64,000 nucleotides of DNA. Source: Eledone cirrhosa. Its lineage: Eukaryota. The stretch is from assembly GCA_964016885.1 (NCBI GenBank), contig OZ024747.1:44144001-44208000 (forward strand), in the 5' to 3' direction. Shown here in pieces: positions 30,931-41,842 of this stretch (positions are counted from its first letter, which is position 1; every line of letters starts with the position of its first letter). Under the pieces are notes generated by a model that saw only the letters and a program-made list of their open reading frames with translations, was not told the DNA's origin and did not search any database. Position numbers and translations under genes: made by a program.

Positions 30931-30934
<4 letters not shown>

Positions 30935-31233
30935 AGGGGTGTAACTTGGAGTTACTGCAGGTTCACCCGGGGGAGCACTCGATGTTTAGGTTCACTTCTG
31001 TGATGAGGTGTAGAGCTATACAGAGTGTAATATATTGAAAGGATAACAAGGACGATTGGTTACTCCTTCATTACATTTATTGGTAATATAGTATTTTAAA
31101 GGGTCCGTCGACTGCCGATCATTGAGTCGGGTAGGATCGATACAGATCGAACCTTGAGCTGATCAGTGGCGAAACGCGCGTCACCTACCAATAAATGTAA
31201 TGAAGGAGTAACCAATCGTCCTTGTTATCCTTT

Positions 31234-31237
<4 letters not shown>
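30931..31237 (+). mobile_element. Family L element; degenerate HHR about 31102-31185
   Basis: Tail, then arms 31031-31085 and 31186-31240; GAAAC-gcgc-GTC-acc is intact but the 5' core reads CCGTCGA. Confidence 0.65.
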
Positions 31238-31283
<46 letters not shown>

Positions 31284-31470
31284 AGATAAATCTACCAAGA
31301 GTTTACGGTAGTGTCCAATCCGTATGAAGAACTCAATGTATTCCGGATATCATGGAAAGAAGAGATGTAATGAAAAATCACTTTCGGTGAAAGATAAACG
31401 GTATACAGAGTCAAGATAAACTATTAAACAAATAATGAATAAACAATTCCTTATATTAAACAAAAAAAAG

Positions 31471-31624
31471 TTCATTATTTAACGATCGTTTCTAGGATAT
31501 ATATGTGTTAGAATTGGTATGCATATTCAACAGATCTATGTACAAAATTATACAAAATTATACAAATTATCAAGATTAAATATACATACCAACACATATA
31601 TACGCCGTCTTCAGAAATAATGAA
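31471..31624 (-). ncRNA. Hammerhead in the inverted pLTR copy
   Basis: Reverse complement of 38299-38452. Confidence 0.75.
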
Positions 31625-31928
31625 GTATATTTATTGATAATAACAACAATTCAAAATTTCAGGTCCGTTTGGGAACAAAATTGACCAATGAAAATACAAA
31701 GGGTTAAATGCAGTTCGGTGTGTGTATATACATGTAAAACCCTTACACATATTTTACAAAAATGTATGTATAATTTGTATACGCATACTAAAAGGATGGA
31801 TGCAAATACAAAATTTCAAGGTTAATGTCTCTGTAAGTTTATAATGCACAAATAAGATGCGTATTGACACAAGTATGAAATTAAGTATATAAATATATTT
31901 TTTCATACTCACACATATCCGTACAATC

Positions 31929-34151
31929 AAGAAAGACCTTTTTAATTTAATTAAACACCTCAAATTTAAAAAGTATAAATCCGTCTTTCAAAAGGACCTT
32001 GATTCTACCCTATTGGACCTAAAAAAGTCTAAAAAAATCCATGTCCACTCGGACAAAACTGGTAACTTGTATCATATGGATATTGAACATTATAACGAGT
32101 TCATATATAAAGAACTCAGAAAAAATTATAAAAAATCTAATAATGTGTCACTCACCAACATCAACAACAAAACACACAACATAGTAAAAAAACTAAACAT
32201 TGAAGATAGAACTGAACCTTTGGCATTGAAAAGACCACACTTCAACCTGAAGGATCACAAATCTAACTTTAACTCAAATCCTTCTATTAGACTTATATGT
32301 CCCTCCAAATCAGATATTGGAATAATTAGCAAAAAAATTTTAGATAGAGTCATCCCACAAATAAGAAAATACGTTATTTTACCACTCTGGGAAAACACCT
32401 CCCAGGTAATTAACTGGTTTAAAAATATTAGGTGTAAATCTTCTGCTTCATTCTTACAATTTGATATAGATAATTACTATTCTTCTATATCACCTATACT
32501 CCTGAACAAAGCATTGATATTTGCTAAAAATAGATCTAACTTAACTTTGGATGACATTAATATTATTACACATGCTAGACTAACACTTATTGAATTTCAG
32601 AATGAATACTGGACCAGAAACACATATAGTAATCTTTTTGATATTACTATGGGTTCAAGCGATTCCGCCCAAATTACTGATCTTGTGGGCCTCTTTCTCC
32701 TTTTCAACATAAATGCCTCTTTTCCCCACCTCAAAGGTGGTTTATATCGTGATGACTGTCTTCTTCTTTCTAACAACCTTAGCCTTTCAGAAATTGAAAA
32801 AAACAAAAAACATATTAGAACTTTCCTTAAAGACTATTATAATCTTAATATTACTTTTGAAAAAACAAGTAAAGTAGTAAATTTCCTAGATATAACTTTA
32901 GATTTAGCTACGGGTATCTACCAACCTTACCATAAACCTAACCAAAACTTACACTACATACACTCACAATCTAATCACCCTAAATCTATCCTTAAAAACC
33001 TTGCATATAATATATCACTTAGAATTTCTAACCTTTCTTCTAACCAAGATGTATTTGATAAAAATGCGACCTTCTATAACGAAGCTCTAGATAGAAGTGG
33101 CCACAAAAATAGATTAGAGTATATACCTTCTACTAAAAATACTGAAAGCATACAACATAATATTACCAACAAACACCAAATGAAAAGTACACACCTAAAT
33201 GCCACCCACACTATACCCCAAAATACCAAATCTTCTAATATAAAGTATAGTAACTCTCAAAAAACTACTCATCATACAACTCTAATAAATATTAATAATA
33301 AAACTCCTAATAAAAAGGATAAAACACCTAAATCTACAAATATAACTAAAAATAGTTGTGGTGAGATCATTAACATTAATCCTCCTAGTAAAAATCACGA
33401 TACAACCTATAAAAATAATAAAAATAATAAACAACATAGAAACCGTAATAGACGGGTTACTTGGTATAATGCTCCTTTTAATTTACAAGTTAAGGATAAT
33501 ATTGCTAAAAAAATTTTTTATATCCTTGAGAAAAACTTCCCGCCAAACCACAAATACCATCAAATCTTAAATAGGTCCACAGTTAAATTCTCATACTCTA
33601 CAACAAATAACATAAAACAAAATATAAGTGCCTATAATGCATATAAATGTAAGAAAACCATAAGTATACCACCAGTACATCAAATTAACCATAATATCTC
33701 CTCAAATACAGAATTAACGAAAGGATGTAACTGTAGAAACAAAGCAAACTGCCCATTAAAAGGGAATTGTCTTGTTAACAACATAGTCTATAAATGTAAT
33801 GTTAAAACTAAAGATTCTATTTGCTCATATATAGGAGCTACCTCTAACAATTTTAAGACAAGGTTTAATACCCACAAGCATAGTTTTAAAAATGCCGCAC
33901 TGGCTAATACAACATCTCTAGCAGAAAAAATCAATAGTTATAAAAATAAGAATATAGAATATGATTTGACCTGGAGTGTGCTCAAAAGAGCCACCCCTTA
34001 TCAAAATAATAGAAATGAATGTAGATTATGTTCCCAAGAACTATTTGAAATAATGAAGTCTAAGGATATCTTATTAAATAAACGACAGGAATTAATTATA
34101 TCGTGTAATCATAAACTAAAAAAAACATTTAAATATTATAAACCTAATTAA
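31929..34151 (+). CDS. PLE RT-endonuclease polyprotein (5'-truncated at the inversion junction, otherwise stop-free)
   Basis: FLQFDIDNYY, TMGSSDSAQ, GLYRDD, VNFLD, Asn/Lys/Thr-rich insert, CNCRNKANCPLKGNC linker, IVYKC...YIGAT...FKTRF GIY-YIG; frame open back to 31929 (KKDLFNLIKHLKF). Confidence 0.93.
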   Translation, partial: KKDLFNLIKHLKFKKYKSVFQKDLDSTLLDLKKSKKIHVHSDKTGNLYHMDIEHYNEFIYKELRKNYKKSNNVSLTNINNKTHNIVKKLNIEDRTEPLALKRPHFNLKDHKSNFNSNPSIRLICPSKSDIGIISKKILDRVIPQIRKYVILPLWENTSQVINWFKNIRCKSSASFLQFDIDNYYSSISPILLNKALIFAKNRSNLTLDDINIITHARLTLIEFQNEYWTRNTYSNLFDITMGSSDSAQITDLVGLFLLFNINASFPHLKGGLYRDDCLLLSNNLSLSEIEKNKKHIRTFLKDYYNLNITFEKTSKVVNFLDITLDLATGIYQPYHKPNQNLHYIHSQSNHPKSILKNLAYNISLRISNLSSNQDVFDKNATFYNEALDRSGHKNRLEYIPSTKNTESIQHNITNKHQMKSTHLNATHTIPQNTKSSNIKYSNSQKTTHHTTLININNKTPNKKDKTPKSTNITKNSCGEIININPPSKNHDTTYKNNKNNKQHRNRNRRVTWYNAPFNLQVKDNIAKKIFYILEKNFPPNHKYHQILNRSTVKFSYSTTNNIKQNISAYNAYKCKKTISIPPVHQINHNISSNTELTKGCNCRNKANCPLKGNCLVNNIVYKCNVKTKDSICSYIGATSNNFKTRFNTHKHSFKNAALANTTSLAEKINSYKNKNIEYDLTWSVLKRATPYQNNRNECRLCSQELFEIMKSKDILLNKRQELIISCNHKLKKTFKYYKPN

Positions 34152-35299
34152 TAACATTATCTTAGAAATTAATTTAATTTAAATGTTATTTAACCTATAA
34201 ATTTAATTTAATTAAAATTTTATTACAGATGAGAATATAAAATATTATGTAATCATAAATTGTGAAAAACCTTTAAATATTACTAATATATACTTAGTAA
34301 TTTAATTTATAGATTAATTTTAATTTATTTAAACCTTTTATTATAATTCTTTTACAGATAAAATATAACAAAATAATATCGTGTATCCAATGACAGAGAA
34401 ATAATTTTTAGTATTATAGACCTAATTAATATACATTTTAGAAATATATTTATAATTTGGTTTTAATTTTAATCAACCTAAAAATTTAATTTTAATTTGC
34501 TTAAAATTAGTATCCTTATACAGACGAATTGCAGAAAGTCATGTAATCATAGAATGGGATGTGTTTTGGATATATACCTAGTTAATATATTCTATGCAAT
34601 TTTTTGAAAAAGATATGTATATGTATATGTGTATGTGTATGTGTGTGTGTATGTATATGTGTATATATGTATATATATATATATGTGTGTATATATATGT
34701 ATATATGTATGTGTATGTATATGTATATGTATATGTATTAATTTTGATGTCTATTTGCATATAATTATATTATGCTATTGATAAAATACAATATCTGTTT
34801 TATGTATTATATACCTAATTAACATATACTATAGAAATAAATATATAATTTTTAATTTAGTTAACCTATAATTTATATTCTACTACCGATGTAATACTTT
34901 ATTTTATTTGTTTTTTCCCTATTACTAAATTCATTTCCTAATATTGATACCATAACGTTATTAACTTTAATTTAGTTATACTATAATTAATACTCTACTA
35001 CTATTTAACTTCAAAATTCTGCTTCAAATATTATAAACCTAACTAATTTACACCTTAGAAATCAATATGTTAACTATCTTTGGTTTAGTTAACATATAAT
35101 TAATGGTATACTTGTTTATTTTGAGATGCATAGATTTTGCCTTAGTTCTTGTTTGTTGTATTTCCTAACACTGAAACTATGTAAAAACATACATTGGATC
35201 AAGATACGGAAAATATTCTATGTTTCTTGAAACATATATTTACTATGATCCCCTTCTCCAAACCCCCCCCTTTCCCCCATACTATTATCATCTGTATTT

Positions 35300-35518
35300 G
35301 TATGCGTGTATGTATGAATATATATGTAGGTAGGTGTCTATATAGGTTTGGGTATTTATATATGAATATAAAAATACATATATGCGCATGCAAATATGAA
35401 TGTAAGATTGAGTGTGTATATATGAGTGTGTGTATGTATGTATATATGTGTATATATGCATGTATATATGTATGTGTATGTGAATGTGTGTATGTATATG
35501 TGTATGTATATATATGTA

Positions 35519-35551
<33 letters not shown>

Positions 35552-35802
35552 ATATAGAAATATATATATATGTATATATATGTATATGTATGTGTGTGTG
35601 TTTGTATGTGCGTGTATGTGTGTTATATATATATGTATGTCTCTCTATTTATATGTCTATCTTCGTATCTATGTGATATATGTGTGTGTGTGTGTATGTA
35701 TGCACATATATGTGTTTATGTGTATATATGTGTATGTGTGTATATATGTGTGTGTGCACACACATATATATGTGAGTGTGTATATGTGTCTGTGTATATG
35801 TA

Positions 35803-35843
<41 letters not shown>

Positions 35844-35932
35844 GTGTCTATGTGTGATTATATGTCTATATTCGTATGTGTGTATATATGTATGTATATG
35901 TCTATATGTATATATATATATATGTATATATG

Positions 35933-35975
<43 letters not shown>

Positions 35976-36220
35976 TTTTTTTATTATTATAATATAACTT
36001 ATGTGTATGTGTGTATATGTGAGGTTGTGTATGTGTATATAATATGTGTATATATAAGTGTAAAAAAATATATATATATATGTGCATGTCTGTTTTTTAT
36101 GTGTGTGTATATATATATATATATATATACGTGTATATATATATGTATATGTGGGTGTTTGTATGTGTATTTATGGTGGTATGTGTGTGTGTGGGTATCT
36201 ATATATATATATATATGAAT

Positions 36221-36284
<64 letters not shown>

Positions 36285-36637
36285 ATGTATATATATGTCT
36301 CTATTAATGCGTGTATATATGTATATACATATGCCTTTTTATTTTTATTTGTATGTCTGAGTTAGGTGAGGTTGTAGTGGCGTTTTTATATATATACGCA
36401 TATATGGATGCGTATGTATTTGTATATATGAGTATAAGTAAGTGCATATGTATGTATGATTATATATCTAATTCTATGTATGAATATACATGTATATATA
36501 TGTGTGTATGTAAGTTGTGTGTGTATGTATGTATATGTCTATGTGTGTATATATATATGTATGTATATCGATGTACGTGTATGTATGTACATGTTTGTCT
36601 ATGTATGTGTGTATGTATGTGTATGTATATATATATG

Positions 36638-36696
<59 letters not shown>

Positions 36697-37354
36697 GTAT
36701 ATATCTTTATTATTTATTTTTTTTATATTTTTTTATATATATGTGTATGTGTGTATGTGTTGTGTGTGTGTGTGTGTGTGTATATATATCTTTATATATG
36801 TGTATGTGTATGTTCGTGTAGGTGTTTGTGTGTGTATGACTTTATATGTATGTGTGTATGTGTGTATGCGTATATATTTCTATGTGTGTGTACATGTATG
36901 TATGTGTGTGTATGTGTATGTGTGTGTATATGTATATATGTATGTGTATGTATATATATATATATATATATGTTATATATAAATATGTATATATATATGT
37001 GTGTGTATGTGTATATATATATATATATATATATCTATATGTTTTTCTATTTGTATATATGTGTGTATAGGTATATAACTTTCTCTTTGTATTTCTAAGT
37101 TGTGTGATAGTGTAGTGGTGTTTGTATGTATATACCGATATATAGATGCGTAAGTATTTGTCTGTATGTATATATGTAAGTCTGTATATATTTGTGTGTA
37201 TATATAGCTATGTATGTGTATATCTGTATGTATATTAGTATGTAAGTGTTGTATATGTGCATGTATGTGTGTGGTTATATATATGTGTGTCTATATAGTA
37301 TGTGTGATTATATGTATATGTGTGTGTATATGTACGTGTATATACATGTATGTG

Positions 37355-37410
<56 letters not shown>

Positions 37411-37634
37411 TGTATATTTGTATGTATATGTGTATATGTATGTATGTGTGTATATGTATATGTTTATATATGTGTGTGTATGTATGTTCTTAGCGTGGAT
37501 GTGTGTATATGTATGTATGTGTCTGTATATGTGTGTATATTTATGTATGTGTGTGTGTGTGTCTATGTGTATATATATGTATATTATATATATATGTGTG
37601 TGTGTATATATATATATATGTATATGTATGTGTA

Positions 37635-37669
<35 letters not shown>

Positions 37670-37680
37670 TTTCTTGATAT
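35300..37680. repeat. Degenerate TA/TG/TATG simple-sequence block inside the PLE 3' region
   Basis: Direct reading; lies between the ORF stop and the 3' pLTR. Confidence 0.85.
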
Positions 37681-38298
37681 ATTTCTTTTTTCTTTTTTCT
37701 TTTTTCTTTCTATTGTTTATTTATTATTTTTTATTTTTTTATTTTCTTAGTTTATAGATACATCTATATTAGGCAGTCTGCTCAGACCGTTGAATACTGA
37801 CCTCTCCCCCCCCCCCTCCCACCTAATTTCTGTATCTTGATCTAAAAATGTGTGTGCCAGTGTTTTATGTGAGTGAATTAATATCCATGTGCTTATGATT
37901 TTATATCCACATATATAAATGTGAGTGGGGGTGTGTGTGTGTTTGTATGTTCGTGGTTATGTGTATATTTATGCATATACGCGCGTGTATGTGTGATTGT
38001 ACGGATATGTGTGAGTATGAAAAAATATATTTATATACTTAATTTCATACTTGTGTCAATACGCATCTTATTTGTGCATTATAAACTTACAGAGACATTA
38101 ACCTTGAAATTTTGTATTTGCATCCATCCTTTTAGTATGCGTATACAAATTATACATACATTTTTGTAAAATATGTGTAAGGGTTTTACATGTATATACA
38201 CACACCGAACTGCATTTAACCCTTTGTATTTTCATTGGTCAATTTTGTTCCCAAACGGACCTGAAATTTTGAATTGTTGTTATTATCAATAAATATAC

Positions 38299-38452
38299 TT
38301 CATTATTTCTGAAGACGGCGTATATATGTGTTGGTATGTATATTTAATCTTGATAATTTGTATAATTTTGTATAATTTTGTACATAGATCTGTTGAATAT
38401 GCATACCAATTCTAACACATATATATCCTAGAAACGATCGTTAAATAATGAA
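38299..38452 (+). ncRNA. Type-I hammerhead with about 115-nt extended stem II in the PLE pLTR
   Basis: ttcattattt-CTGAAGA-[long hairpin tatatatgtgttgg...aacacatatata]-GAAAC-gatc-GTT-aaataatgaa; 10-bp stem I, palindromic aacgatcgtt. Confidence 0.78.
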
Positions 38453-38499
38453 CTTTTTTTTTGTTTAATATAAGGAATTGTTTATTCATTATTTGTTTA

Positions 38500-38553
<54 letters not shown>

Positions 38554-40280
38554 TGTGTGTGTGTGTTTCGATTCAATAAGTTAAAGCCGAAATGGATTCT
38601 AAATGAGTAAAAAGCAAAGCAAGGAATAACAGTAATAATACCGATATTTGTAAGTATTAAACTACTTCCTAAGAACAAAATATTTTCCCTTGCTTTTTTA
38701 CTTCAGTAGTGGTTAAATGTGAATTTAAAGTTCATAATTACAATACATTATCGGTAGAGGGTCGGACGCCATGCTTTCCAGCATAGTTATGTCCCTTTAC
38801 CGTCTGAGTTCAAATCCCGTCGAGGTTAACTTTGCCTTTCATCCTTACGGGGTCGATACAATAAAGTACCAGTAATGCACTGGGTAATTGCTGGCCTAGT
38901 GCCAAGTGTAGAAACAATTATCGTTACATCAATATTGTGGGCAGTACCTGCTCGCCGCATCTCCGTCACAACTTGTCAACCACAATATTTTTAATTTTGT
39001 CCTAGGTCTAAATGATGATGAGATATACTAACCCGAAAGTAATGATTCCTCGTTTAGGCACAAAGCCAACAATAATTTACAAGGGGAGTAAAGTCAATCG
39101 ATACATCGGCCCCAGTGCGTGCCTACTTTATCGACCCATGACTCACAACTCAGAGAGTGAGAACAAATTACACAAATATTCTATCTAACGTTCTATCAAC
39201 ACTGCCTGTGTTGTCACTTTATTTAATTATTTCTACTTTTAGCACAATGCCATGATTGATACTTTATTTTATCGATCCGTTAAACATGAAAGGCAAAGCT
39301 AACATCGGCAGGATTTGAACTCAAAACGTAAAGGGTCGTAACTATATGCCATAAAGTATGGTTTCCAATCCACCACCCTTACTTATCCAGCAATAATAAA
39401 ATCTTAAATTTCGACCTCTCTGCATTTCAACCCGTAACTGCTTAAGCAACCGAACATTAGCCCAAGCTGAAATTGAACATCACCGCATTAGGAAATAAAT
39501 GGTTATCAAGATAATGCAGATCAATAGTAAGTTTAACTACATGTATATATAATAGATATGGGGCTTTATTTAAGATTTCTCGGGGAACTAGTTAATGGGG
39601 CATGTGATTTGATATGTACATTTAGACATAATAGCGTAGAACTAATTTTCTGTCCATAATATTTATTATTAATAAGTGTTGTGGGTTCATATCCTGCCGA
39701 GGTTAACTTTTCCTTTCATCCTTACGAGGTCGATAAAATAAAGTACCAGTCACGCACTGGGGTCGATTTAATTGACTTTCCCCTCCCCAAAAATTGTTGG
39801 CCTTGTGCCATATATATAAAAAACCATTATCCGTGAAGAAATAGAGTTGACTTAAATATAGAGTCATATCTATAATCGGTGCAAAACCTTCTTTGGGATC
39901 TTTGAGGGTGGATTCTGGTTTTATGGGCGGTGGAAGCACTTCCGAATTGGAGAAGGGGGGCAAATTTGGTCAATTTAATTGGAATGATTAATTTAGTTCT
40001 TTGCATTCTAAAATGGTCAGAAACATAACATGTACATAAATTGTATCATATATCCAAATAGATGTGAGTTTTGGTAGTTTGGGGAGAAAAATATAATAAT
40101 TAGGTGAGGACATGGCCCTGCTGTCCACCCCCAGTTCCACCTCCCCTGAATATATATAATGTAAAAAAAAAAAATAATGCTCTGTAACATTTCCTAAGGG
40201 GTTGATATATCAAGTTATTCGCATTTGTTATAAACTGGTATTCTACCCCATTTATTCAACTCCTATATATATATATATAT

Positions 40281-40520: not shown

Positions 40521-40639
40521 AAAAAAACATTATATATACAAAAAAAAAAAGAACATTACAAGAAATCCCATATTTACGAACGTAAACTAAACAATTACCG
40601 ATCTCGCAAGCCCCGAACTCCAGACCTATTATTTGGGAC

Positions 40640-41700
40640 CCTCTCTATGTCTACTACAGGATACTCTCCAATTACCAAATTCTCTGCAACCACCAAATTC
40701 TCCCCTCTCTATATCTAACATACAAAACACTCTCCCAATCCCCCTCTTTATATCAATCATCCCCAGTCAATCCCCTCGCCATCTCTACCGCACTCTCTCG
40801 TAATCGTTCACTCCCTATCCATCACAAACTCCACCCTCTATATATTTTGCGATACAGTCTCTCCCAATCCCCCTCTCTATATTTAGCAATATTTATCTCT
40901 CCCAGCCCCCTCATTATATCTACAAGCATTGAAATCTATACCTCTCTATATCTACTTCGCGTCGCTCTCGCCCAATCCCCTTCAATTACCATCAAACTAT
41001 CCCCCTCTCCATATCTACCATGCAACACTCTCATTTTATCCATCACTACCAAATTCTCCACCTCTCTATATCTATCAACACATATCTCTATCAATTCTCT
41101 AACTCCATTCATTACGACCAAACACTCCCCCTCTCTACATCAACCATACAACATCTCTCTCTCAATCCCCCTCTATATATCAATTACCACCAAACTCTCC
41201 CCCGCTCTATATCTACTATACAACACTCTTTTTCATTCCTTCTCACTCTATCCATTGCCACAAAACTCTCCCCCTCTCTATATCTACTATACAACACTCT
41301 TTTTCATTCCCTCTCACTCTATCCATTGCCACCAAACTCTCCCTCTCTCTATATCTACTATACAACACTCTTTTTCATTCCCTCTCACTCTATCCATTGC
41401 CACCAAACTCTCCCCCTCTCTATATCTACTATACAACACTCTTTTTCATTCCCTCTCACTCTATCCATTGCCACCAAACTCTCCCCCTCTACTACATGGA
41501 ACTTTCTTTCAATAACCCCTCTCGAAATCAAATAACAACAAACTACCCCTTCTTTATATCTACTACACGGAACTCTCTTCCAATCCCTCTCTCTATATCA
41601 ATTTACACCAAAGTCTCCCCCGCTCTATATCAAGTAATACCAATCTCTCCCCCTCTCTATATCTACTACACGGAACAATCTTCCAATCCCCCTCTCTATA
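40640..41700. repeat. CT-rich minisatellite, about 71-bp unit
   Basis: ACCAAACTCTCCC..ATATCTACTATACAACAC recurs at 41331, 41402 and 41473; degenerate outward. Confidence 0.9.
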
Positions 41701-41842
41701 TAACATGAACATAAATTATAGCGCATATACAAATAGATGTGTGTTTGGGTATTTTGGGGAGGGGCCTGCTCCCTGTCCCACAACACTTGAGTTTATAGCT
41801 AGACCTTCATCCCTCCCATACACCTTACACACACACACACAA

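What the first reader, a model, noticed from the sequence alone, without database searches (positions are those of the whole stretch)
31280..38502. Young 7.2-kb PLE with stop-free ORF, about 4.3-kb microsatellite-filled 3' region and long-stem-II hammerhead
Seen: about 740 open codons cut at the inversion junction, about 508-bp arms that look near-identical (recent insertion), an Asn/Lys/Thr-rich insert within the RT C-terminal region, and about 2.4 kb of TA/TG simple sequence between the ORF stop and the pLTR. Inference: this simple sequence is part of the transposed RNA, so the element may export microsatellite-like DNA, including its own TA targets. The Cys linker points to a Neptune/Nematis-type rather than Poseidon-type PLE; the clade needs a tree.
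Basis: partly seen in the sequence, partly recalled or inferred. Interest (0 to 1): 0.7.

Follow-up and report, generated by a model that had tools for sequence, protein, structure and literature searches.

The report
Jumping gene carrying its own microsatellite
This is a recent, front-truncated copy of a known kind of jumping gene whose family carries a long TA/TG repeat block in essentially every copy checked, so each jump likely plants new landing sites for itself and other mobile DNA, and the block may be an intron that the element fails to remove before copying.

Summary
The anatomy is confirmed, but the clade call is wrong. This is a Hydra-clade Penelope-like element (RWR, DKT, CxCx5C, no conserved CCHH), not Neptune/Nematis. 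The window copy lacks the first 73 of 813 codons.

The refutation test failed. The 2.4-kb TA/TG block is collinear in 38 of 39 closest copies; the other has an assembly gap. None of 28 position-ordered copies joins ORF to hammerhead directly. The two arms of one insertion carry near-identical blocks (0-0.25% divergent, against 1.2-2.9% between insertions), so the block travels with the element.

It differs between subfamilies (about 0.9, 1.5, 2.0, 2.4 kb) and carries TG, not CA, on the sense strand. It is a landing pad: one young copy sits inside a sister copy's block. The lineage supplies only about 1% of the genome's TA/TG DNA.

New lead: the block is bracketed by conserved GT(AAG) and polypyrimidine-TAG, like a retained intron. 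No RNA evidence was obtained.

The scan already noted Hydra elements with such tails elsewhere in this genome.

The parts
31236..31279 (.). (TA)22 target run, left flank
   Evidence: all 32 distinct tail ends examined abut TA runs
31280..31421 (-). 141-nt one-sided tail; equals the first 141 nt of the 5' UTR in read-through copies
31422..31929 (-). inverted, 5'-truncated copy of the 3' end (pLTR arm) with a second hammerhead at about 31471-31624
31930..34151 (+). RT + GIY-YIG ORF, codons about 74-813 of the 813-aa family protein, no stops
   Evidence: model pLDDT 81, best fold matches are telomerase RTs
33126..33437 (+). 104-aa Asn/Thr/Lys-rich insert, predicted disordered, at a site of variable length among homologues
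33726..34112 (+). CxCx5C linker and GIY-YIG endonuclease with CxxC and CxH around the conserved E and N
34152..34610 (+). AT-rich 3' region with three degenerate repeats of about 140 nt that start in the ORF end
   Evidence: (family D16)
34611..34740 (+). small TA/TG block; pure (TA)n in the most diverged subfamily
34741..35299 (+). unique AT-rich 3' region shared by all subfamilies
35300..37757 (+). main TA/TG block, 2458 nt from donor-like GT to acceptor-like TAG; candidate retained intron; the whole 3' region holds 13 runs of at least (TA)8, all in this block
37758..37993 (+). unique segment between block and arm
37994..38502 (+). 3' pLTR arm ending at the tail-less 3' end
38299..38452 (+). 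type I hammerhead motif with long stem II and palindromic stem III (activity untested)
38506..38550 (.). (TA)22 target run, right flank

Best explanation
This is a recent, 5'-truncated and inverted copy of a Hydra-clade Penelope-like retrotransposon whose 7.1-kb unit includes a 2.4-kb TA/TG block, which is likely copied from the element's RNA at each insertion and likely rides along as tolerated cargo that grows by slippage and partial duplication. Shown: the block is shared by copies at unrelated sites, is cut through by truncation and inversion points like the rest of the element, is nearly identical in the two arms of one insertion, differs in length between subfamilies, and takes insertions of this and other elements. 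Inferred: the GIY-YIG domain nicks (TA)n on both strands; reverse transcription starts at two fixed sites 141 nt apart, giving one tailed and one tail-less end; two cDNAs joined head to head give the inversion seen here. Inferred and untested: the block is tolerated because it is a spliceosomal intron, removed from the mRNA but kept in the transposition template, as PLEs do with other introns (about 40%); otherwise it is a plain long UTR.
For: Block collinear in 37 of 39 closest copies by anchor extraction; L053 also has it with a 200-nt deletion and L054 has an assembly gap inside it. Of the first 28 exact ORF-end hits on contig C1, 25 have 2.5-4.6 kb between ORF end and hammerhead (13 newly fetched, 2 fetched earlier, 10 from hit coordinates only), none joins directly; the other 3 are a gap, a block broken at an internal TA run, and an inversion junction. 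Nine within-insertion pairs differ by 0-0.25% in the block, 12 between-insertion pairs by 1.2-2.9%. Block length medians: 938 (8 old-subfamily blocks), 1520 (16), 1959 (8 mixed), 2430 (39). Nested insertion: the two halves of a sister-subfamily block around a young insertion match that host's own other arm at 99.5%. One tailed and one tail-less end in 27 of 27 insertions with both ends visible, by my reading. ORF stop-free over the collinear part in 36 of 38 copies; 33 synonymous vs 14 other codon changes between subfamilies. Intron signature: GT in 96 of 96 and GTAAG in 90 of 96 aligned block starts, TAG in 78 of 78 block ends; sense-strand polypyrimidine-YAG sites in all five Hydra families, none on the antisense strand of 18 sequences, and after only 1 of 16 host TG arrays.
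Against: No RNA was seen: the run search listed no RNA holder, which says nothing either way. The 39 closest copies were chosen for similarity to the window, hence the second, position-ordered sample, which covers only one contig arm. Intron signature is modest: about half of neighbouring sites are equally conserved, the sense strand is T-rich so polypyrimidine tracts are expected there, GTAAG occurs many times inside the block, the window copy itself has GTATG, only families A, B and C have the acceptor close to the repeat end, and no spliced retrocopy was found (0 hits; expected if PLEs always keep introns, so uninformative). Direction of growth rests on midpoint rooting with the short-block subfamily outside, and growth is not monotonic. 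Arm identity could be helped by gene conversion.
Confidence: 0.85

Rival explanations
1. The block is functional: its (UA)n tracts help the RNP find or pair with (TA)n targets, or its UG tracts recruit host RNA-binding proteins, and it is kept by selection.
For: All five Hydra families examined, 41-69% identical in protein, have long TG-biased 3' regions of about 1.0-4.4 kb, always TG on the sense strand.
Against: Published Hydra families of 1.1-3.0 kb target (TA)n without such blocks. Block length varies 0.76-2.5 kb within this lineage. All 3' ends map to the two fixed sites, none primes inside the block except possibly L201. Short copies lacking the block insert in TA runs equally.
Confidence: 0.12
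2. The TG bias is a record of A-to-I editing of self-complementary (UA)n RNA that reverse transcription writes back into DNA.
For: The small block is pure (TA)n in 20 of 20 old-subfamily copies and holds 13-14, 18-21, 25-31 and 34-39 TG units, with no added CA, in more derived subfamilies. In the main block A>G variants (113) outnumber T>C (43); shared variants 77 vs 14, private 36 vs 29.
Against: G>A variants are as frequent per site as A>G (92; 0.21 vs 0.18), the pattern of slippage and misalignment; no significant A>G excess in ORF, unique UTR or arm. Host compound arrays are also one-strand skewed (median 0.93, 59 arrays). One TA>TG change followed by slippage can give a whole block.
Confidence: 0.15
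3. The simple sequence is host microsatellite that arose or was captured at this locus, or the copies are DNA-level duplications.
For: The genome is rich in such arrays: 8.9% of 180 kb sampled.
Against: Same block, same unique islands, in copies on at least 15 contigs with unrelated flanks and base-precise ends; 196 exact hits of an internal 26-mer, control 0. A single ancient capture by an ancestor is not excluded.
Confidence: 0.02
4. The element is a Neptune or Nematis PLE.
For: A cysteine-rich linker precedes a C-terminal GIY-YIG domain, and it targets (TA)n.
Against: Linker is CxCx5C, not CX2-5CxxC; DKT, not DKG; no conserved CCHH; N-terminus aligns by eye with Hydra-1_Obim. 107 of 118 homologues have DK[T/S], none DKG.
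Confidence: 0.02

Closest known systems
Hydra clade of C-terminal EN+ Penelope-like elements, incl. Hydra-1_Obim (Craig et al. 2021, PMC8557442; main text parts 1-6 of 10, supplement tables S1 and S2 and cut protein passages seen)
   Same: Single ORF with RW[K/R], DKT, CxCx5C linker, CxxC and CxH around E and N; hammerhead near the 3' end; (TA)n insertion; inverted and tandem structures.
   Different: Listed Hydra consensus lengths are 1080-3045 bp (27 families; Hydra-1_Obim 2507 bp); this unit is about 7060 bp with a 4.35-kb 3' region. Stem II in the listed hammerheads is a few base pairs, here a hairpin of about 110 nt. Tail 141 nt (about 230 in some sister copies) against the 30-40 bp described for PLEs.
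Poseidon PAc of Anolis, two internal RT start sites (Frangieh et al. 2024, PMC11167929; parts 1-2 of 4 read)
   Same: Two fixed 3' ends whose interval is the tail; both strands cut and extended in vitro.
   Different: Other clade, short tail, ATT target, no microsatellite cargo; the mechanism is transferred here by inference only.
Intron-retaining Penelope elements and N-rich ORF inserts (Arkhipova et al. 2013, PMC3846280, passages; Penelope and Chlamys-3 pLTR introns as described in PMC8557442)
   Same: PLEs keep introns through transposition; Asn-rich inserts near the RT thumb occur in rotifer Penelope ORFs.
   Different: Known pLTR/5' UTR introns are 75-751 bp and not described as microsatellite; rotifer inserts are 460-554 aa, here 104 aa.
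Microsatellites born in or riding on TEs (Grandi and An 2013 review, PMC3812793, passages; MITE hitch-hiking cases seen only as reference titles in PMC9659126); Chlamys PLEs lengthened by tandem repeats (PMC8557442)
   Same: Mobile elements that deliver simple repeats on insertion, and elements that target microsatellites.
   Different: In the passages seen these are short tails, proto-microsatellites or non-autonomous DNA elements; not a multi-kb compound block inside an autonomous element that contains its own target.

Membership tests
PLE (EN+) | Telomerase-like RT in one ORF with a GIY-YIG endonuclease | tested here: met
   Model's top Foldseek hits are TERTs, E about 1e-8; YRDD and VY..YIG motifs. 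Pfam does not call the query; GIY-YIG is hit weakly in 2 of 16 aligned proteins.
PLE (EN+) | pLTRs, tandem/inverted insertions, one-sided tail | tested here: met
Hydra clade | RWK motif in place of GxKF/Y | tested here: met
   RWR at 37-39 in full-length copies, as in Hydra-1_Crog; missing from the truncated window copy
Hydra clade | DKG modified to DKT | tested here: met
   SDKTG at 114-118
Hydra clade | Linker CxCx5C | tested here: met
   residues 673-681
Hydra clade | CCHH absent from the endonuclease | tested here: met
   Two Cys lie between VY and YIG in this protein (696, 705) but the second is in none of 15 aligned homologues, so no conserved CCHH; a private pair, noted as a caveat
Hydra clade | [quoted passage not shown] | tested here: met
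   C771, C774, E777, N790, C799, H801 nearly invariant
Hydra clade | No insertion-in-fingers domain | tested here: met
   Motif A to motif B spacing is within one residue of Hydra-1_Obim, counted by eye
Hydra clade | Hammerhead near the 3' end and (TA)n insertion | tested here: met
Hydra clade | Generally short, under 3 kb (a tendency in the paper, not a diagnostic motif) | tested here: not met
   Tandem unit 7060 bp (coordinates of L013/L014) against 1080-3045 bp
Hydra clade | Placement in an RT tree with named reference clades | not testable with these tools
   Named references were visible only in a paper supplement and could not be entered; the tree holds unnamed homologues only (all five host families in one 99-support group with four unnamed proteins)
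Neptune / Nematis | CX2-5CxxC linker, DKG, CCHH | tested here: not met
Naiad / Chlamys | N-terminal endonuclease, CxC motif, no hammerhead | tested here: not met
   EN is C-terminal and a hammerhead motif is present
Type I hammerhead ribozyme | Core CUGANGA, GAAA, UH with stems I-III | tested here: met
   Constrained fold -43.8 vs unconstrained -46.9 kcal/mol; core unchanged in 11 aligned copies except one stem III change; extra unpaired bases flank stem II
Type I hammerhead ribozyme | Self-cleavage | not testable with these tools
   needs an in vitro assay; PLE hammerheads cleave poorly alone (PMC4209133, passages)
U2-type spliceosomal intron | 5' GT, polypyrimidine tract, 3' YAG | tested here: inconclusive
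   Present and conserved but against a background of about 50% conserved sites
U2-type spliceosomal intron | Spliced RNA exists | not tested
   no RNA run was listed; no spliced genomic copy

The most novel reading that the evidence does not exclude
Hydra PLEs in this genome carry a giant microsatellite intron: spliced from the mRNA, kept in the transposition template, growing with a sense-strand TA-to-TG bias, and delivered with every long insertion. Because it contains the (TA)n target, it creates a feedback loop in which these elements seed landing sites for themselves and other repeats, and all Hydra families together account for a visible share (perhaps up to a tenth) of the host's compound TA/TG DNA.
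Probability: 0.22. Interest if true: 0.78.

Novelty: new variant of a known kind. Interest (0 to 1): 0.5.

Why it matters
It gives a clean, countable case of an autonomous retroelement that transports kilobases of its own target sequence, with subfamilies that record how a compound microsatellite changes. If the block is an intron, it would be a much larger test case for PLE intron retention than the 75-751 bp introns described in the papers read, and one long-read RNA set would settle it. For annotation: such elements are split at the repeat block, so Hydra lengths and copy numbers from short-read or masked assemblies may be underestimates. The limit is scale: this lineage explains about 1% of the genome's TA/TG-run DNA.

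Tried and rejected
Rfam: no match at gathering threshold. Pfam: nothing at cut-off for the query. PDB by sequence: one weak retron RT hit. RNA: no RNA holder listed. Reads laid on ORF and first UTR segment were contigs of unrecorded or guessed-DNA kind from four labelled organisms; they cover 26-30 of 30 bins, none reaches the repeat block, and they were not used as evidence. A second read-laying on the segment after the block gave no result, so splicing and insertion polymorphism stay open. Spliced retrocopy search: 0 hits for one donor window of 2-32 nt; other donors were not searched. A-to-I editing as the source of TG bias: not supported in alignable parts. The acceptor counts were spoiled by false anchor matches inside the repeat and were replaced; only the small-block columns and the tree are used. 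First-look candidate counts (2252, 1780, 92276) were not used as copy numbers. Literature searches for a PLE with a microsatellite-filled 3' region or intron showed no such description in the listings and passages seen; the library lacks most subscription papers, Repbase and Dfam entries, and I saw only part of the Craig supplement.
Full report
Setting. The window is G000:C7:44144001-44208000 in a 3.0-Gb assembly. Nothing below depends on that.

Observation. Rfam has no match. Left of the inverted arm are 141 extra bases; both ends abut (TA)22.

The family. A search with ORF end plus UTR returned 40 scored matches, all at least 99% identical. I fetched the 39 others. Full-length copies read arm, 141-nt tail, rest of 5' UTR, an 813-aa ORF, 3' region, arm; the tandem unit is 7060 bp. 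The window copy starts at codon 74 and has its upstream pLTR inverted, so it is likely dead on arrival although stop-free. It is young: 2-6 substitutions in 702 ORF bases against its closest copies (leaving out L065, whose ORF part is inverted). A 27-mer at the ORF end has 2072 hits and one in the hammerhead 9338 hits at up to one mismatch, controls 0; these counts include older subfamilies and both arms of inverted insertions.

Clade. Craig et al. 2021 define Hydra by RWK, DKT, a CxCx5C linker, no CCHH, and CxxC and CxH around the conserved E and N. The protein has RWR, DKT, CxCx5C, CxxC and CxH. Of 118 homologues 107 have DK[T/S] and none DKG. The AlphaFold model (pLDDT 81) best matches telomerase RTs and leaves the insert disordered. 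Inserts at this site occur in several homologues, and Asn-rich inserts are known from rotifer Penelope elements. The Neptune/Nematis reading fails. A tree with named references could not be built; the tree of unnamed homologues groups the five host families examined with four unnamed proteins.

Is the block part of the mobile unit? Yes. It was extracted collinearly from 37 of 39 copies (2143-2541 nt; 1.5-3.9% substitutions and 20-33 gaps against the window); L053 has it with a deletion and L054 has an assembly gap inside it. Because those copies were picked for similarity, I took the first 28 exact ORF-end hits on contig C1: 25 have 2.5-4.6 kb before the hammerhead (13 newly fetched, 2 fetched before, 10 judged from coordinates), none joins directly, and the other three are a gap, a block that breaks off at an internal TA run, and an inversion junction. 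Nine pairs from one insertion differ by 0-0.25% in the block, 12 pairs from different insertions by 1.2-2.9%. An inversion breakpoint falls inside the block in the C4 insertion. This is what copying from one template at insertion predicts. That the template is RNA is inferred from the element type; no RNA holder was listed.

How it changes. Median block length is 938 nt in the most diverged subfamily (8 blocks), 1520 in a sister subfamily with a 98% identical ORF (16), 1959 in a mixed set (8) and 2430 in the window's subfamily (39). One unique island is present twice in the block, closer together in the sister subfamily. The small block at 34611 is pure (TA)n in 20 of 20 old-subfamily copies and holds 13-39 TG units and no added CA in the others, rising along the subfamily tree. 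With midpoint rooting this reads as growth by slippage and partial duplication; the root is not proven. Four other Hydra families in this genome, 41-46% identical to this one, also have long 3' regions shared between copies (about 1.0, 1.3, 2.0 and 2.5-3.2 kb; 3-4 copies each), all TG-biased on the sense strand, two of them repeat-filled. Published Hydra families are 1080-3045 bp in all. I tested A-to-I editing as the cause of the strand bias: A>G and G>A are balanced in the block and there is no excess in alignable parts, and host arrays are one-strand skewed too. It stays a minor rival.

Landing pad. A young tandem insertion on C4 sits in the last TA run of a sister copy's block; the two host halves match that host's other arm at 99.5%. 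A family D ORF start (96% identical) lies inside an old-subfamily block in L237, and other repeats interrupt blocks in L243, L189 and probably L180. Of 66 end flanks tested, 1 was inside a block of this lineage and 2 loci were beside another copy's end, so self-targeting is real but not the rule.

Scale. Alternating TA/TG or TA/CA runs make up 8.9% of 18 stretches of 10 kb taken at round coordinates (range 0-24%), or roughly 270 Mb. At 0.75-1.9 kb of such runs per copy, 2072 copies give 1.6-3.9 Mb, about 1%. Two Hydra-like ORF fragments in the same 180 kb hint at some tens of thousands genome-wide, so all families might reach several percent; two hits cannot fix this.

Intron lead. The block starts at a donor-like GT (35300) and ends in a long pyrimidine tract and TAG (37757). 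Aligned on independent anchors, GT is kept in 96 of 96 and GTAAG in 90 of 96 starts, TAG in 78 of 78 ends, while an AG seven bases upstream is lost in some subfamilies. All five families have polypyrimidine-YAG sites on the sense strand, none on the antisense strand in 18 sequences, and only 1 of 16 host TG arrays is followed by one. PLEs retain introns, and Penelope and Chlamys-3 have a pLTR intron. Against: half of nearby sites are as conserved, the strand is T-rich, donor-like words are common in the block, the window copy has GTATG, and no spliced retrocopy exists for the one junction searched. I put it at about 40%.

Insertion mechanism (inferred). All 32 distinct tail ends abut (TA)n, as do the tail-less ends listed. 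By my reading, 27 of 27 insertions with both ends visible have one tailed and one tail-less end. This fits the two RT start sites shown in vitro for an Anolis Poseidon element, with a longer interval. Earlier scan notes say the same for other families here.

Verdict. A Hydra-clade PLE with an unusually long, co-transposed repeat block: a new variant of a known kind. Repeats riding on TEs are known, and the scan had noted such tails at other places in this genome. Eight literature searches showed no description of this arrangement in what I saw. Papers seen: PMC8557442 parts 1-6 of 10 and parts of the supplement; PMC11167929 parts 1-2 of 4; bioRxiv 10.64898/2026.07.22.740005 part 1 of 5 (supplement not seen); PMC13282606 part 1 of 3 and passages; passages only of PMC4209133, PMC3846280, PMC3812793, PMC3124438 and PMC9659126.

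Noticed in passing
L207-L210 (G000:C1) and genome-wide: Short palindromic insertions of this lineage: both arms stop at arm position 308-316, the 5' strand of hammerhead stem I, with different junction letters in each of 4 copies. 15 such pairs (spacing 234-308 nt) lie among the first 100 hammerhead hits. Either a fixed RT stop after the long hairpin or an RNA 5' end.
   Followed up: partly
window 30934-31235: A 302-nt element between TA runs with a perfect fold-back of about 53 bp and a hammerhead-like core variant; a similar sequence flanks L074. The PLE inserted in its right TA flank.
   Followed up: partly
L171, L172, L176, L177, L178, L182, L162, L193: Some sister-subfamily copies have a tail of about 230-245 nt rather than 141, suggesting a third start site.
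   Followed up: no
L055: A direct, unit-length copy that begins exactly at the tail-less end position and finishes at the tail end, with TA runs on both sides.
   Followed up: no
L164 (family B): Its 3' region holds two hammerhead-like copies, about 0.45 and 2.05 kb after the stop, so this UTR seems to have grown by partial tandem duplication.
   Followed up: no
window 41028-41490: 71-bp minisatellite, 6.5 copies, within a longer C/T-rich degenerate repeat at 40600-41720.
   Followed up: no
window 38805-38884 and 39682-39761: Two 89% identical copies of a short interspersed repeat, probably a SINE; similar sequence is seen beside L207 and L210.
   Followed up: no
runs X1, X4, X5, X7: Contigs from four differently labelled organisms cover most of the ORF and first UTR segment at 85% identity or more; shared ancestry, label differences or contamination were not told apart.
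   Followed up: no
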